64,000 nt of DNA from Dendrobates tinctorius (taxonomy: Eukaryota), in the NCBI RefSeq assembly GCF_039654945.1, contig NW_027361767.1:310001-374000 (forward strand). Direction: 5' to 3'. Positions 42,101 through 48,100 of the stretch are shown here, piece after piece. The position numbers are program-made. Position 1 is the stretch's first letter. The number at the start of each line of letters is the position of its first letter.

Positions 42101-45100
42101 ATGCAAGGAGGAAGCGATACTCCCTAGTGCCACCTATGGGGGCTCTCCTGTCTAGAGTTTGTTTTTGTTTTTTTGGCATCTTGACCATTTTGTCGCTTGT
42201 CCCCTATATACTGCAGTCCTCCTCAGTATACAGTGAACCCAGCAGAGTGCTGTTCGCTTCACCTGAGAGTCCTGGGGGGACTGAGCTCTGCCCAGACACC
42301 ACTGATCTTGCATTTCTCACTGGCCAGGCCTGGTATACCTCTATATATCCCAGGACTTACAGGTAGTACCCCTATAGCTGGCACTAGATAACATGGATTC
42401 TCTGGTTCTGGCGCCGTCACAATATCATCACTTTCTAATAATCGACTTTCTCTAGTCTCCGCCATATCGCTACTCTGCACAGTCCCATATACCGCACCAG
42501 TGAAGACCCCTGCACCGTGCCCAATACTGTTGTCATGAATACTATGCATTGTGCAGCTACTGTATATGCCACGATCGACTCATTAAGTAAATAAATTATA
42601 TATAACACTGTGCATGGTCACATCAGCCGCCAGGAGGGTGGGAGAAGGTCCAGTATGGTGCCTGTAGACCACCATCAAGGTATTGCAAGAATAACAAAAC
42701 AGCCCTACAAAAACCTGTATATTGCAGCGTCTGGATGGATACATAACCCCCTTATCCTCTAGGGATATTGCCCTCATCAGGATCAGATCACTACACCCTT
42801 CTGGGGGGGCGCGTCACATCTCAGCTGCGTCTTATATGGGGGGACGTGTCCTGACTCCAGCTCTACCATGTCTATTTGGGGAGATACATTTCGGCTCCAG
42901 CTCTGCCACGTCAATATGGTGAGATGCGTCCGGGCTCTAGCTCTGCTATATCTATATGGGGGGACGTGTCCCGGCTCCAGCTCTGCTCCATTTATATGGG
43001 GGGACGTCTCCTAGCTCTGCTATATCTATATGGGGGGATGCGTCCTGGCTCCTTCCTTTCCCTTTTGCAGCAGCCTCCTGCCACTGGTCGCTTCAGTTCA
43101 TTTCGTCATCCTCTGTTGCCCTCTAATAGTTACATTTCCCCCTTTTTTTTAGATTCATGCATTGTTTCTCCTCATCCCATATGTCACATCCATAGTTTTC
43201 GATGTATGGATGTGAATAAGGCGCACTACAATATCAGTTTAGGTATATGGGTGCTCCATCATCTATGGAGAAAGTAATGTCAGAAGGAAGAGAATCCCAA
43301 GACGTGCACCTAATGCTGCAATAAAACAAGGTGCAATGTAACAGCAGCCCAGGAAATTACAATAAACCACAATAATAATAATCAACCACACTAATAATGG
43401 CCAATATCATATGATGAAAAAATGGTAATGATGCAGAATTTAGTGCGCAGTCATTGGACAGAGCTGAACACGTAATGAACGATAAGTGATTGGCTCAGCG
43501 GCCCGTCCTGCAAGGAGTTCTGACCAATCAGTGCATGGGAAGGAAGAGTCTCCATGGTAACCAGCTGGACACTGTGACTTGCTGCTAATGATTTGTAGGA
43601 ATTCGTCAGGGTAGACAGTAGGTGACTGACTTGCCTCTATATAGGGGCAAATTAGTGCTAGTCAGTGATGGTTCATAATAATGTGTGTCCAAGGGAGCCC
43701 CCATAACGGTGTGCCGCAAAAATTCTCTTCTCCACGACTTGCTCCTCCACATCGCCGCTCCTTTACAGCAACTTCTCCACGACAACGCACCTACTGATGC
43801 CGAGAACACCACTGCTGCTCCTGCTACTTCACCGCTGCTGATCCCGCCGTGCCCACAGCTCCCGCGTCACCATGCCCGCTCCTAGACTGCGCTACATCAC
43901 CGGTATTTTTACTTTTTTTTTCCACAGGTGCAGTTCCTTTAATTTTTCAACTTCGGCGGATCCGTACATCCGCCGATCCGATGCCTTCCGTTCCTGTCAG
44001 TCCGCCTGCGGATCCGTTTTCCGCTATTTTGGCGGATTCGGACTGACAGGAAAAACTGAAGTGTGAAACAGGCCTTATCAGTCTTAATAAAAGTGTATTT
44101 TTTTGTAGCAGCATTATGTGCACGTCTTACATGTACTGGGCTTTCTCTTCATTCTGACCTCCATAGATTTCAGGAATTGATGGCTGTGGTTGGTGGCGCG
44201 TTACTTTCAGGATCGTCCCTCTTTGTGACCCATTACTGTCCCTTCAACGTGTGTCTAGAAGTTGGCGCTTCATCTGATCATGGAGCTTTCTGACACCTTT
44301 CTGCTCCGATTTCCTGGAGGGTTTTGCGTTTCCCAGGAACCTGAATATTCCAGAAGAATTATTATGGGGTCTCTAAGGCTGGCACACCGTTGTGGGGGCT
44401 CCCTTGGACACACATTATTATGGGGCCTCTATGGCTGGCACACTTATGGGGTCTCTCTTGGACACACATTATTATGGGGCCTCTGTGACAAGCACACTTA
44501 TGGGGGCTCCCTTGAACACACACTATAATGGGCCCTCTATGAGTGGCACACTGTTATGGGGTCTCACTTGGACACATTATTATGGGGCCTCTATGACAGG
44601 CACATTATAATGGGGTCTACCTTGGACATATTATTATGGGCCCTCTATGCATGGCACACCATTATGGGGGCTCCCTTGAACACACATTATGGGTCCTCTG
44701 TGACAAGCACACTGTTATGGGGTCTCACTTGAACACACTATAATGGGCCCTCTATGAGTGGCACACTGTTATGGGGTCTCCTTTGGACACATTATTATGG
44801 GGTCTCTATAACAGGCACACTGTTATGGGGGCTCCCTTGGCCACACATTATTATGGGGTCTCTATGGCTGGCACACTGTTATGGGGGCTCCCTTGGCCAC
44901 ACATTATGGGGCATCACTGACTGGCACTTATTTGACCTTATATAAAGGCCCATGAAGACCTGGTCGCCTGGTGCACGGTCCATGGAGGATGACAGGGTCC
45001 GGGCACAGGCAGGGTCCTATGTTGGGGGCTACATGGCCGTATAATGCAGGTGAATGACGATCTGCAGTGGACGGTGACCGCGACAAGCACGTCATGTACC

Positions 45101-48100
45101 GTCTACCTGTAACTGACGGGCATGATGCAGTCGTTCCCTGCAGGTCACTTTATGACCCCATTTGCCTGCATTACTGTTTGGCTCCAGTCACATGCACATT
45201 TTATTCTGCAGAAATTCACGTGTATTCAGTTTGCAGTAACTCCAGGCGGTTTACTGCAAAAACCTCCTCATTCACATGAAGGTAACGAGACGAATTCCTG
45301 CAAATGATCAGCAGCAAGTGACAGCCACAAGGCCCATACATCTGTCACTGCGACAGCGTCTAGCTGGTTACCATAGAGACCGTTCCTTCCCCGCGCACTG
45401 ATTGGTCAGAACTCCCCGCAGGACGGATCGCTGAACCAATCACGTATCGTTCGTTTCGTGTTCAGCAATGTCCAATGACTGCGTCATTACGTCACCGGAA
45501 ATGCAGGCGGAGTTTGTTGCCGGAAGCGAAGGCACCGGCGGGGAAATGGCGCCGAGCTCGAAATCAGACCGGAGCAGCGGAAACCGGAAATGGGGCCCGA
45601 GAGACCATATTATCCGGCAGCTGGACCGAGTGAGGGTAAGAATTGTCCATTGGGCAGGCGACTATATGTAACTGTGACCGGAGGGAAGGAATAACGGGAG
45701 GAGAGAGGACCGGGGAGGAATAATGGGAGGAGGACAGCGAGGACCGGAGAAGGATAACGGGAGGAGGACAGAGAGGACCGGATAAGAATAACGGGAGGAG
45801 GAGAGAGAGGACCAGAGGAGGAGAACGAGGACCGGAGAAGAATAACGGGAGGAGAGAGGACCGGGGAGGAATAATGGGAGAAGGAGAGAGAGGACTGGGG
45901 AGGAATAACGGGAGGAGGAGGAGAACGAGGACCGGAGAAGAATAACGGGAGGAGGAGGAGAACGAGGACCGGAGGAGGAGAACGAGGACCGGAGAAGAAT
46001 AACGGGAGGAGAGAGGACCGGGGAGGAATAATGGGAGAAGGAGAGAGAGGACCGAAGAAGAATAACGGGAGGAGGAGGAGAACGAGGACCGGAGAAGAAT
46101 AAAGGGAGGAGGAGGAGAACGAGGACCGGAGAAGAATAAAGGGAGGAGGAGAGAAAGGACCAGAGAAGAATAACGGGAGGAGAGAGGACCGGAGAAGAAT
46201 AATGGGAGGAGGAGACCGAGGACCGGGGAGGAATAACGGGAGGAGGAGGAGAACGAGGACCGGGGAGGAATAACGGGAGGAGGAGGAGAACGAGGACCGG
46301 TGAAGAATAACGGGAGGAGGAGAGAGGACCGGAGAAGAATAACGGCAGGAGGAGAGAGGACCGGAGAAGAATAACGGCAGGAGGAGAGAGGACCGGAGAA
46401 GAATAACGGGAGGAGGAGGAGAGAGAGGACCGGAGAAGAATAACGGGAGGAGGAGAGAGGACCGGAGAAGAATAACGGCAGGAGGAGGAGAGAGACGACC
46501 GGAGAAGAATAACGGGAGGAGGAGGAGAGAGAGGACCGGAGAAGAATAACGGTAGGAGGAGAGAGGACCGGAGAAGAATAACGGGAGGAGGAGAGAGGAC
46601 CGGAGAAGAATAACGGAAGGAGGAGGAGAGAGACGACCGGAGAAGAATAACGGGAGGAGGAGGAGAGAGAGGACCGGAGAAGAATAACGGGAGGAGGAGA
46701 GAGGACCGGAGAAGAATAACGGGAGGAGGAGGAGAGAGGACCGGAGAAGAATAACGGGAGGAGGAGGAGAGAGACGACCGGAGAAGAATAACGGCAGGAG
46801 GAGAGAGGACCGGAGAAGAATAACGGCAGGAGGAGAGAGGACCGGAGAAGAATAATGGGAGGAGGAGGAGAGAGAGGACCGGAGAAGAATAACGGGAAGG
46901 AGGAGGAGAGAGAGGACCGGAGAAGAATAACGGGAGGAGAGAGAGGACCGGAGAAGAATAATGGGAGGAGGAGAACGAGGACCGGGGAGGAATAACGGGA
47001 GGAGAACGAGGACCGGGGAGGAATAATGGGAGGAGGAGGAGAGAGAGGACCAGAGAAGAATAACGGGAGGAGAAGAACGAGGGCCGAAGAATAACGGGAG
47101 GAGGAGGAGAACGAGGACCGGAGAAGAATAACGGGAGGAGAGAGAGGACCGGGGAGGAATAATGGGAGGAGGAGAACGAGGACCGGGGAGGAATAATGGG
47201 GGGAGGAGGAGGAGAACGAGGACCGGAGAAGAATAACGGGAGGAGGAGGAGAACGAGGACCGGAGAAGAATAACGGGAGGAGGAGGAGAACGAGGACCGG
47301 AGAAGAATAACGGGAGGAGGAGGAGAACGAGGACCGGAGAAGAATAACAGGAGGAGGAGGAGAACGAGGACCATTGAAGAATAACAGGAGGAGAACGAGA
47401 ACCGGAGAAGAATAACGGGAGGAGGAGAGAGAGGACCAGAGAAGAATAACGGGAGGAGAGAGGACTGGGGAGGAATAATGGGAGGAGGAGAACGAGGACC
47501 GGGGAGGAATAATGGGAGGAGGAGAATGAGGACCGGGGAGGAATAATGGGAGAACGAGGACCGGAGAAGAATAACGGGAGGAGGAGGAGAACGAAGACCG
47601 GAGAAGAATTACGGGAGGAGAGAGAGGACCGGAGAGGAATAATGGGAGGGGAGAACGAGGACCGGAGAAGAATAACGGGAGGAGAACGAGGACCGGAGAA
47701 GAATAACGGGAGGAGGAGGAGAACGAGGACCGGAGAAGAATAATGGGAGGAGGAGGAGAACGAGGACCGGAGAAGAATAACGGGAGGAGAACGAGGACCG
47801 GAGAAGAATAACGGGAGGAGAACAAGGACCGGAGAAGAATAACGGGAGGAGGAGGAGAACGAGGACCGGAGAAGAATAACGGGAGGAGGAGGAGAACGAG
47901 GACCGGAGAAGAATAACGGGAGGAGGAGAACGAGGACCGGAGAAGAATAATGGGAGGAGGAGGAGAACGAGGACCGGAGAAGAATAACGGGAGGAGGAGG
48001 AGAACGAGGACCGGAGAAGAATAACGGGAGGAGGAGGAGAACGGGGACCGGAGAAGAATAACGGGAGGAGGAGGAGGAGAACGGGGACCGGAGAAGAATA

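What the first reader, a model, noticed from the sequence alone, without database searches (positions are those of the whole stretch)
43446..45483. Inverted ghost copy of the DCAF15 promoter 1.7 kb upstream
Seen: 43446-43607 is a reverse-complement copy of 45289-45483, roughly 80% identical by eye. Many differences destroy CpGs, yet all three CCAAT boxes and the X-box survive, and the X-box is closer to consensus than the original. An inverted unit of the 44360 minisatellite lies beside it (43670-43715), suggesting a larger local inverted duplication. Inference: a ready-made leftward promoter or enhancer, facing the CC2D1A 3' end in the interval where mammals have PODNL1.
Basis: partly seen in the sequence, partly recalled or inferred. 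Interest (0 to 1): 0.65.

Follow-up and report, generated by a model that had tools for sequence, protein, structure and literature searches.

The report
Decaying inverted copy of DCAF15 promoter
A short stretch just upstream of the DCAF15 gene was copied long ago, back to front, about 1.8 kb further upstream; the copy is real but looks like a slowly decaying by-product of a local DNA rearrangement rather than a working promoter.

Summary
43446-43607 is the reverse complement of 45289-45483 (in-window blastn E 1.7e-38). After a gap the match continues: 43633-43715 pairs with 44949-44870, the last unit and 3' junction of the 54-bp minisatellite. Over 238 ungapped columns identity is 87%.

The right arm lies 63-257 bp upstream of the DCAF15 start codon at 45546 and is CpG-island-like (o/e 1.0). 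The left arm has o/e 0.53. Six CpGs are right-only and none left-only in the promoter block.

All three CCAAT pentamers and 13 of 14 X-box-like bases are shared. Once CpG columns are excluded this is not significant (p=0.15). The copy lacks the CCGGAA-rich, CpG-rich start region, and its leftward flank is AT-rich.

A second, non-collinear inverted pair (43261-43329 with 44098-44168) has similar divergence. That points to a patchwork local rearrangement. No target-site duplications were seen, and no other copies exist in the 64 kb.

Best reading: an old local inverted duplication, methylated and decaying. A residual NF-Y-bound enhancer or promoter role is not excluded. Genome-wide copy number, related species, expression and methylation could not be checked with these tools.

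The parts
43446..43607 (-). Left arm, promoter block: inverted copy of the DCAF15 upstream module (the 'ghost')
   Evidence: 158 ungapped columns, 21 mismatches; CpG o/e 0.53, 5 CpG
43633..43715 (-). Left arm, junction block: inverted copy of the last 54-bp minisatellite unit plus the unique junction after it
   Evidence: (E 1.7e-19): 80 columns, 10 mismatches
43604..43632 (-). 29-bp filler between the two left-arm blocks. It is possibly a remnant of the 343-bp right-arm segment.
   Evidence: 43610-43626 matches 45107-45091 at 14/17; 46 of 2000 shuffles reach that score
45289..45483 (+). Right arm, promoter block: upstream module of the DCAF15 promoter, with an X-box-like site and three CCAAT boxes
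   Evidence: 13 CpG, o/e 1.0; ends 63 bp before the start codon
44870..44949 (+). Right arm, junction block: last minisatellite unit and the junction after it
44950..45292 (+). 343-bp segment present only in the right arm (deleted from the left arm, or inserted here)
   Evidence: no match elsewhere in the window at E<=1
44358..44907 (+). 54-bp minisatellite, 10.1 copies, with no CpG across most of it
   Evidence: (81% matches)
43716..44357 (.). Spacer between the arms. It holds a CpG-rich patch (43700-44099, o/e 1.1-1.4), a 14-bp perfect hairpin (43991-44004 with 44039-44052) and a transposon-like terminal motif (44061-44077).
   Evidence: (I18)
43261..43329 (-). Second inverted pair, left member (b')
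   Evidence: 55/61 identical to 44098-44168; 0 of 500 shuffles reach the score; not collinear with the main pair
44098..44168 (+). Second inverted pair, right member (b)
   Evidence: (I14)
45367..45380 (+). X-box-like 14-mer in the right arm, 10/14 to the palindromic consensus; the left-arm counterpart 43548-43561 scores 11/14
45401..45476 (+). Three CCAAT pentamers in the right arm (45401-05 inverted, 45436-40, 45472-76). The left-arm counterparts are 43524-28, 43489-93 and 43453-57. Spacing is 34/35/36 in the right arm and 33/35/36 in the left.
45484..45545 (+). Presumed DCAF15 start region, not duplicated. It is CpG-rich, holds CCGGAA motifs and the first copy of the direct repeat 45494-45512 / 45583-45601.
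   Evidence: (D9); the transcription start site itself was not mapped
45546..45635 (+). DCAF15 exon 1 coding part (30 codons), followed by a GT donor
   Evidence: three of four weak PDB hits are DCAF15 N-termini, E 1.7-9; next exons, PF14939

Best explanation
This is an old, local, inverted duplication. At least 614 bp (44870-45483) was copied in reverse orientation about 1.2-1.8 kb upstream. The copied segment ran from inside the last minisatellite unit, through the junction, to the X-box/CCAAT module of the DCAF15 promoter.

The event was most likely a replication template-switch or fold-back type rearrangement. It also laid down an inverted copy of a second nearby segment (b, 44098-44168) out of order.

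The copy did not include the start region of the promoter. Since then it has behaved as ordinary methylated intergenic DNA. It lost CpGs by deamination and lost more than half its length by deletions. The original stayed an unmethylated CpG-island promoter.

Shown: the repeat, its collinearity, the CpG asymmetry, the missing core and the second pair. Inferred: the mechanism of origin, the methylation history and the present inactivity.
For: - The inverted repeat has E 1.7e-38 and 1.7e-19.
- Its blocks are collinear and include a unique minisatellite junction.
- No other copy of any part of 43100-45700 occurs in the 64 kb. In that search 16 of 40 rows were dropped as hits of the two minisatellites to themselves. 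The spacer, the 343-bp segment and the left flank also have no other copy.
- The second inverted pair scores 55/61, with 0 of 500 shuffles reaching it. Its JC distance of 0.105 is similar to 0.111 and 0.127 for the main pair. Its position is non-collinear, so the whole looks like a patchwork from one event.
- By eye, no target-site duplication flanks 43446/45483, 43425/45490 or 43261/44168.
- The promoter block has 6 right-only CpGs and 0 left-only (binomial 0.031). CpG o/e is 1.0 in the right arm and 0.53 in the left, against a window median of 0.56.
- Motif mismatches are 1/29 against 13/107 in non-CpG spacer (p=0.15).
- The 29-bp filler in the left arm matches the interior of the 343-bp segment at 14/17, and 46 of 2000 shuffles reach that score. 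That suggests deletions in the copy.
- No Rfam family, tRNA or Pfam domain was found in the interval.
Against: - Three other measures of motif survival are borderline. All columns give p=0.067. Nine-mers plus the X-box give p=0.050. Random block placement gives 0.037.
- The three longest perfect runs (21, 15 and 13 bp) each cover a motif.
- Motif spacing is kept to within 1 bp, while all large indels fall outside the 126-bp module.
- The polarity of the CpG changes is assumed, because no outgroup was available.
- Copy number was tested only within 64 kb.
- No microhomology was seen at the junctions. After about 10% divergence this is uninformative.
- A CpG-rich patch (43700-44099) directly abuts the copy and is unexplained.
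Confidence: 0.58

Rival explanations
1. The left arm is a live regulatory element. As a duplicated NF-Y (CCAAT) plus RFX-type module it would bind these factors. It would act as an upstream enhancer or boundary for DCAF15, or as a weak divergent promoter for a leftward non-coding transcript.
For: - All three CCAAT pentamers are identical between the arms.
- Two of the three boxes in each arm fit RRCCAATSR. Four of the 12 window matches lie in the two arms.
- Spacing is 33/35/36 in the left arm against 34/35/36 in the right.
- The three longest identical runs each cover a motif, and random block placement gives p=0.037.
- The X-box-like site is one base closer to consensus in the copy.
- A fourth CCAAT sits at 43401-43405 in the left flank.
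Against: - Motif survival is not significant once CpG columns are removed (p=0.15). The motifs contain no CpG, so they are intrinsically less mutable.
- The motifs were chosen after looking at the alignment.
- CpG decay is confined to the left arm.
- There is no core or start region, no CCGGAA motifs and no CpG island leftward.
- The block as a whole is no more conserved than the junction block.
- X-box matches of this quality occur at chance level.
Confidence: 0.22
2. Both arms are copies, or terminal inverted repeats, of a dispersed transposable element with an internal minisatellite. On this reading the DCAF15 upstream module is itself transposon-derived.
For: - The region is repeat-rich. 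One search lists tandem arrays at 42833-43052, 44358-44907 and 45697-50750.
- The spacer carries a terminal-like motif that recurs in the window: 3 matches against 0.21 expected.
- Two pairs of inverted repeats lie within 2.3 kb.
Against: - No other copy of either arm, of the 54-bp unit or of pair b occurs elsewhere in the 64 kb.
- By eye, no target-site duplication flanks any candidate boundary.
- The right arm runs straight into a CpG-island start region, and only the left arm shows CpG decay.
- No transposase domain was found in the ORFs tested. The ORFs inside 43600-45400 were not scanned.
Confidence: 0.12
3. The inverted arms act at the RNA level or are an artefact. A read-through transcript from CC2D1A would fold the arms into a long double-stranded stem that feeds small-RNA or editing pathways. 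Alternatively the palindrome is an assembly artefact.
For: The two arms on one strand can pair with a predicted duplex energy of -252 kcal/mol. The shuffled control gives -77 +/- 6 over 100 shuffles.
Against: - There is no evidence of any transcript across the interval.
- The arms are 1.7-1.9 kb apart.
- An assembly fold-back artefact would give near-identical arms. These show 13% divergence with indels and one-sided CpG decay.
Confidence: 0.04

Closest known systems
Short-range template-switch / fold-back inverted duplications. Sources: PMC7954356, PMC3907307 and PMC11293582, seen as search listings and the start of abstracts only.
   Same: A nearby segment is copied in inverted orientation within a few kb. 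More than one templated piece is laid down out of order. One breakpoint falls in a tandem repeat.
   Different: The event is old, about 10% diverged, so junction microhomology can no longer be read. The spacer between the copies is long (1.15 kb) and holds other sequence. The mechanism is inferred, not shown.
Duplicated promoters upstream of the true promoter, such as the spacer promoters of rDNA intergenic spacers. Source: PMC1215480, seen as a search listing and the start of its abstract. The Xenopus rDNA case is recalled.
   Same: Part of a gene's own promoter is repeated upstream of it.
   Different: Those are Pol I promoters, in direct orientation, multi-copy and functionally tested. Here there is a single inverted Pol II-type copy that lacks the start region and shows CpG decay.
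X-box plus CCAAT (RFX / NF-Y) promoter modules of MHC class II and RFX7 target genes. Source: PMC11344851, passages read.
   Same: An X-box-like site is followed by CCAAT boxes within about 35 bp. The first box is an inverted CCAAT.
   Different: The X-box match is weak (10-11 of 14) and at chance level in the window. DCAF15 is not mentioned in that paper (0 occurrences). Binding was not tested.
Terminal-inverted-repeat transposons and foldback elements
   Same: Inverted repeats flank an internal region that contains tandem repeats.
   Different: No target-site duplication, no other copies in the window and no transposase were found. One arm is a CpG-island promoter.

Membership tests
Local inverted duplication (template-switch type) | Two copies in opposite orientation within a few kb, with similarity far above chance | tested here: met
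   E 1.7e-38 and 1.7e-19; 87% over 238 columns
Local inverted duplication (template-switch type) | Collinear homology that crosses a locus-specific junction | tested here: met
   The promoter block and the minisatellite-junction block lie in the same order and orientation
Local inverted duplication (template-switch type) | Sequence is unique to the locus, not a dispersed repeat | tested here: inconclusive
   No further copy in the 64 kb. No eukaryotic genome collection was available, so genome-wide copy number is unknown.
Local inverted duplication (template-switch type) | Microhomology or templated patchwork at the junctions | tested here: inconclusive
   Patchwork is present: a second non-collinear inverted pair. 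No microhomology was seen by eye at 43445/43446 or 43715/43716. The event is old.
Local inverted duplication (template-switch type) | Absent from an outgroup lineage | not testable with these tools
   No related eukaryotic genomes could be searched
TIR transposon / foldback element | Target-site duplication flanking the inverted termini | tested here: not met
   The flanks of 43446/45483, 43425/45490 and 43261/44168 differ (read)
TIR transposon / foldback element | Multiple copies in the genome | tested here: inconclusive
   None in the window; genome not searchable
TIR transposon / foldback element | Transposase ORF (autonomous form) | tested here: inconclusive
   The region has no ORF of 110 aa or more other than minisatellite-derived ones. 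Ten ORFs of 40284-43274 gave no transposase hit. The short ORFs of 43600-45400 were not scanned.
NF-Y / RFX CpG-island promoter | CCAAT boxes with NF-Y-type flanks (RRCCAATSR; consensus recalled) | tested here: met
   Two of three boxes in each arm fit. Four of the 12 window matches lie in the arms.
NF-Y / RFX CpG-island promoter | X-box matching the palindromic consensus | tested here: inconclusive
   The left arm scores 11/14 and the right arm 10/14. Matches with 3 or fewer mismatches: 2 in the window against 2.5 expected.
NF-Y / RFX CpG-island promoter | CpG island over the element | tested here: not met
   Left arm o/e 0.53 and its leftward flank about 0.4. The right arm passes, at o/e 1.0-1.3.
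NF-Y / RFX CpG-island promoter | Core / start region downstream of the CCAAT boxes | tested here: not met
   The homology ends at 45483. The CCGGAA-repeat region 45484-45545 has no counterpart left of 43446.
NF-Y / RFX CpG-island promoter | Factor occupancy, open chromatin, transcript starts | not testable with these tools
   No expression, accessibility or methylation data were available

The most novel reading that the evidence does not exclude
The inverted copy is not dead. On this reading it is a promoter module born by local inverted duplication and kept as an NF-Y/RFX-bound element. Its motif cores and spacing are preserved while everything around them decays. It would drive a leftward upstream transcript or act as a DCAF15 enhancer or boundary. 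It sits in the slot that in human holds the neighbouring gene PODNL1, so it would be a caught-in-the-act example of regulatory-element birth from a gene's own promoter.
Probability: 0.15. Interest if true: 0.5.

Novelty: new member of a known kind. Interest (0 to 1): 0.27.

Why it matters
The locus is a clean natural experiment. Two copies of one 160-bp promoter module sit 1.8 kb apart. One is in promoter context and one is out of it. Their differences read out what context does to the sequence: CpGs survive only in the copy attached to the transcription start region.

If the copy proved active, it would illustrate how new divergent promoters or enhancers arise from local rearrangements. If it is inert, as the sequence suggests, it is an ordinary by-product of replication error in a minisatellite-rich intergenic region. 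Its main use would then be as a dating and polarity marker for comparative work on this lineage.

Tried and rejected
- **Single-frame translations of 34000-43400.** I sent these to Pfam to map exons and look for PODNL1-like repeats. I scanned individual ORFs by reference instead.
- **Exon 1 frame.** I corrected the coordinates.
- **Known RNA families.** There was no Rfam match at E<=1 in 40000-46000. No tRNA gene or tRNA-derived signal was found in the window.
- **Dispersed repeat.** The window holds no other copies.
- **Terminal-inverted-repeat element.** I found no target-site duplications at any of the three candidate boundary pairs.
- **Extending the homology past 45483.** Only a 7/7 match (43425-43431 with 45490-45484) appears after a 14-bp gap. 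It is too short to count.
- **X-box as strong evidence.** Rejected, because matches of that quality are at chance level.
- **Literature.** No paper listed or 44 describes a DCAF15 promoter duplication. These are three full-text searches of the held library only.
- **Taxon.** I did not try to identify the species. The protein searches give no organism, and it was not needed for the argument.
- **Unused searches.** The heavy protein searches (search for homologous proteins, the search of protein representatives), structure prediction and the search for related loci were not used. The only DNA collection open to them is bacterial and archaeal, so it cannot bear on this locus.
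Full report
**Setting.** The window has no N. Its bulk CpG o/e is about 0.56 per 200 bp, as expected for a methylated vertebrate genome.

- DCAF15 lies on the + strand. The ORFs 51531-51695 and 52067-52309 hit Pfam DCAF15_WD40 (E 2.2e-4 and 3.4e-20).
- A 30-codon first coding exon (45546-45635) is followed by a GT donor. It gives only weak matches, but three of its four PDB hits are DCAF15 N-termini (E 1.7-9).
- CC2D1A lies upstream, also on the + strand. The ORF 37058-37474 hits PDB 9vhm_A at E 4.8e-23, and 39262-39624 hits the end of the same chain at E 2.3e-13.
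- The last about 150 codons of CC2D1A were not mapped. The ORF 40158-40412 gave nothing.
- Exons were searched one by one. The joined, spliced protein models were not built or searched.
- I do not take this contig for human. The exon products differ clearly from the human PDB chains, and the interval lacks PODNL1.

**The observation.** The repeat finder (I1, I9, I10) and an in-window blastn both recover the inverted repeat. The main hit is 43446-43575 with 45483-45353, E 1.7e-38.

A gapped alignment gives five ungapped blocks:

| Left arm | Right arm | Identical / columns |
|---|---|---|
| 43446-43534 | 45483-45395 | 79/89 |
| 43535-43570 | 45393-45358 | 30/36 |
| 43571-43603 | 45325-45293 | 28/33 |
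| 43633-43670 | 44949-44912 | 33/38 |
| 43674-43715 | 44911-44870 | 37/42 |

- The total is 238 columns with 31 mismatches, 87% identity.
- The last two blocks are the final unit of the 54-bp minisatellite (44358-44907) and the unique junction behind it.
- The copied segment was therefore one contiguous stretch, 44870-45483.
- The right arm holds an extra 343 bp (44950-45292) where the left arm has 29 bp. It also holds an extra 32 bp (45326-45357).
- Seventeen of the left arm's 29 filler bases match the interior of the 343 bp at 14/17, and 46 of 2000 shuffles reach that score. This suggests the copy was once longer and has been whittled by deletions.

**Is it a dispersed repeat?** Within the window, no.

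- The query 43100-45700 against all 64 kb gave 40 rows (word size 9, E<=1e-3). Sixteen were dropped as hits of the two minisatellites to themselves.
- The remaining 24 rows all lie inside 43299-45483.
- The spacer, the 343-bp segment and the left flank were searched at E<=1. The only additions were a 41-bp, 78% match to 7673-7713 (E 0.044) and two matches with E of 0.07 or more.
- A genome-wide check was impossible.

**A second inverted pair.** 44098-44168 pairs with 43329-43261 at 55/61, with 0 of 500 shuffles reaching the score.

- Its JC distance (0.105) is close to those of the main pair (0.111 and 0.127 outside CpG).
- It is not collinear with the main pair. On the right side the order is b, minisatellite, promoter. 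On the left side, read in the same sense, it is minisatellite unit, promoter, b.
- No target-site duplication flanks either pair (read).
- Two nearby segments copied in inverted sense and out of order, at similar age, look like an iterative template-switch rearrangement. I know that class from search listings and the start of abstracts only (PMC7954356, PMC3907307, PMC11293582).
- This mechanism is inferred.

**CpG test.** The right promoter block has 13 CpGs (o/e 1.0) and the left has 5 (o/e 0.53).

- In aligned columns, 12 lie in right-only CpGs (6 dinucleotides), none in left-only CpGs and 10 in shared CpGs. The two-sided binomial is 0.031.
- Seven of the 21 promoter-block mismatches sit in those right-only CpGs.
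- The right arm is part of a CpG-rich zone that runs through the start codon into intron 1. The left arm and its leftward flank are at background or below.
- Without an outgroup the polarity is assumed. One-sided loss is what a methylated copy beside an unmethylated original should show.

**Motif test.** The three CCAAT pentamers are identical in both arms and the X-box-like 14-mer differs at one base.

| Comparison | Motif mismatches | Spacer mismatches | One-sided p |
|---|---|---|---|
| Core motifs, all columns | 1/29 | 20/129 | 0.067 |
| Core motifs, outside CpG columns | 1/29 | 13/107 | 0.15 |
| 9-mers plus X-box, all columns | 2/41 | 19/117 | 0.050 |
| 9-mers plus X-box, outside CpG columns | 2/41 | 12/95 | 0.14 |

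- Random placement of blocks of the same sizes gives one mismatch or fewer in 3.7% of trials.
- In favour of constraint, the three longest perfect runs (21, 15 and 13 bp) each cover a motif. Spacing is 34/35/36 in the right arm and 33/35/36 in the left.
- Against constraint, the motifs contain no CpG and were picked after seeing the alignment. The promoter block as a whole (10.3% non-CpG divergence) is no better kept than the junction block (11.7%).
- The X-box call itself is weak. Against the consensus quoted in PMC11344851 (passage) the left arm scores 11/14 and the right arm 10/14. Matches with three or fewer mismatches occur 2 times in the window against 2.5 expected.
- RRCCAATSR (a recalled consensus) occurs 12 times against 10.8 expected, and 4 of the 12 lie in the two arms.

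**What the copy lacks.** Homology ends at 45483.

- The next 62 bp of the real promoter hold the CCGGAA motifs, a direct repeat (45494-45512 and 45583-45601, D9) and the densest CpG. They have no counterpart left of 43446.
- The flank there is AT-rich with o/e about 0.4.
- The interval has no Rfam family and the window has no tRNA.
- No Pfam domain was found in the 10 ORFs scanned from 40284-43274. One sub-threshold DUF3772 hit does not count.
- None of the 27 short ORFs of 43000-45560 looks like a leucine-rich repeat by eye.
- The human gene order CC2D1A, PODNL1, DCAF15, RFX1 is taken from a passage of PMC3363957.

**Verdict.** The structure is best read as an old local inverted duplication, probably of patchwork template-switch type. 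Its copy has since decayed as methylated intergenic DNA.

A residual role as an NF-Y-bound enhancer or weak divergent promoter cannot be excluded from sequence, and I give it about 0.15-0.2. A transposon origin gets about 0.1. An RNA hairpin role or an artefact is unlikely: the predicted arm duplex is -252 kcal/mol against -77 +/- 6 for shuffles, but no transcript is known, and 13% divergence rules out an assembly fold-back.

Unexplained items are the CpG-rich patch 43700-44099 that abuts the copy and the out-of-order position of pair b.

**Not checked.** Genome-wide copy number, related species, methylation, accessibility and expression were not checked. Supplementary files of papers are closed, and none seemed to bear on the claims.

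Noticed in passing
window 17999-21219 (- strand): This is probably the virus-like stretch the operators mention: a remnant of a LINE-1-type non-LTR retrotransposon ORF2. Three stop-free pieces match PDB L1 ORF2p residues 137-711 (E 1.8e-102), 718-831 (E 6e-19) and 1000-1183 (E 4e-14). The gene is broken. The first ~136 residues are missing from the frame. There are at least two interruptions between the pieces, one of stop type and one a change of frame.
   Followed up: partly
window 45697-50750: A 5-kb minisatellite of 37-bp units, about 130-145 copies at 83-85% matches, lies in DCAF15 intron 1 and starts 60 bp after exon 1. It is CpG-rich (o/e 1.4-1.6). It generates spurious ORFs of up to 1648 aa on the - strand.
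   Followed up: partly
window 29746-33766: A 4-kb minisatellite of 35-bp units, 116 copies at 93% matches, has CpG o/e 1.2-1.3. It explains the 1386-aa 'ORF' and its weak DUF6128 Pfam hit.
   Followed up: partly
window 43700-44099: A CpG-rich patch (o/e 1.1-1.4, 14-16 CpG per 200 bp) directly abuts the inverted copy on its right. It contains a 14-bp perfect hairpin (43991-44004 with 44039-44052). It ends in a motif (44061-44077) that recurs at 7678-7694 and 4641-4657, 3 matches against 0.21 expected. It may be a young transposon fragment or a non-methylated island.
   Followed up: partly
window 43261-43329 and 44098-44168: A second inverted pair scores 55/61, with 0 of 500 shuffles reaching it. 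Its age is similar to the main pair, but its order does not fit a single simple palindrome.
   Followed up: yes
window 26537-27163 (- strand): An ORF of 208 aa has a DDE_3 transposase domain (E 1.2e-11). It is probably a Tc1/mariner-type fragment.
   Followed up: no
window 9968-12326 (- strand): Two adjacent ORFs of 386 and 396 aa have no Pfam hit. By language-model features the second resembles DUF8422 clusters, and in one of those clusters 17% of members also carry RVT_1 (score 0.93). It is possibly another retroelement gene. This is a lead only.
   Followed up: partly
window 42833-43052: A 40-bp minisatellite, 5.7 copies at 68% matches, lies just left of the rearranged block.
   Followed up: no
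window 1-1300: A GC-rich stretch (GC 0.57, CpG o/e 0.87) has long ORFs open in several frames on both strands. It may be a repeat or a CpG island and was not examined.
   Followed up: no
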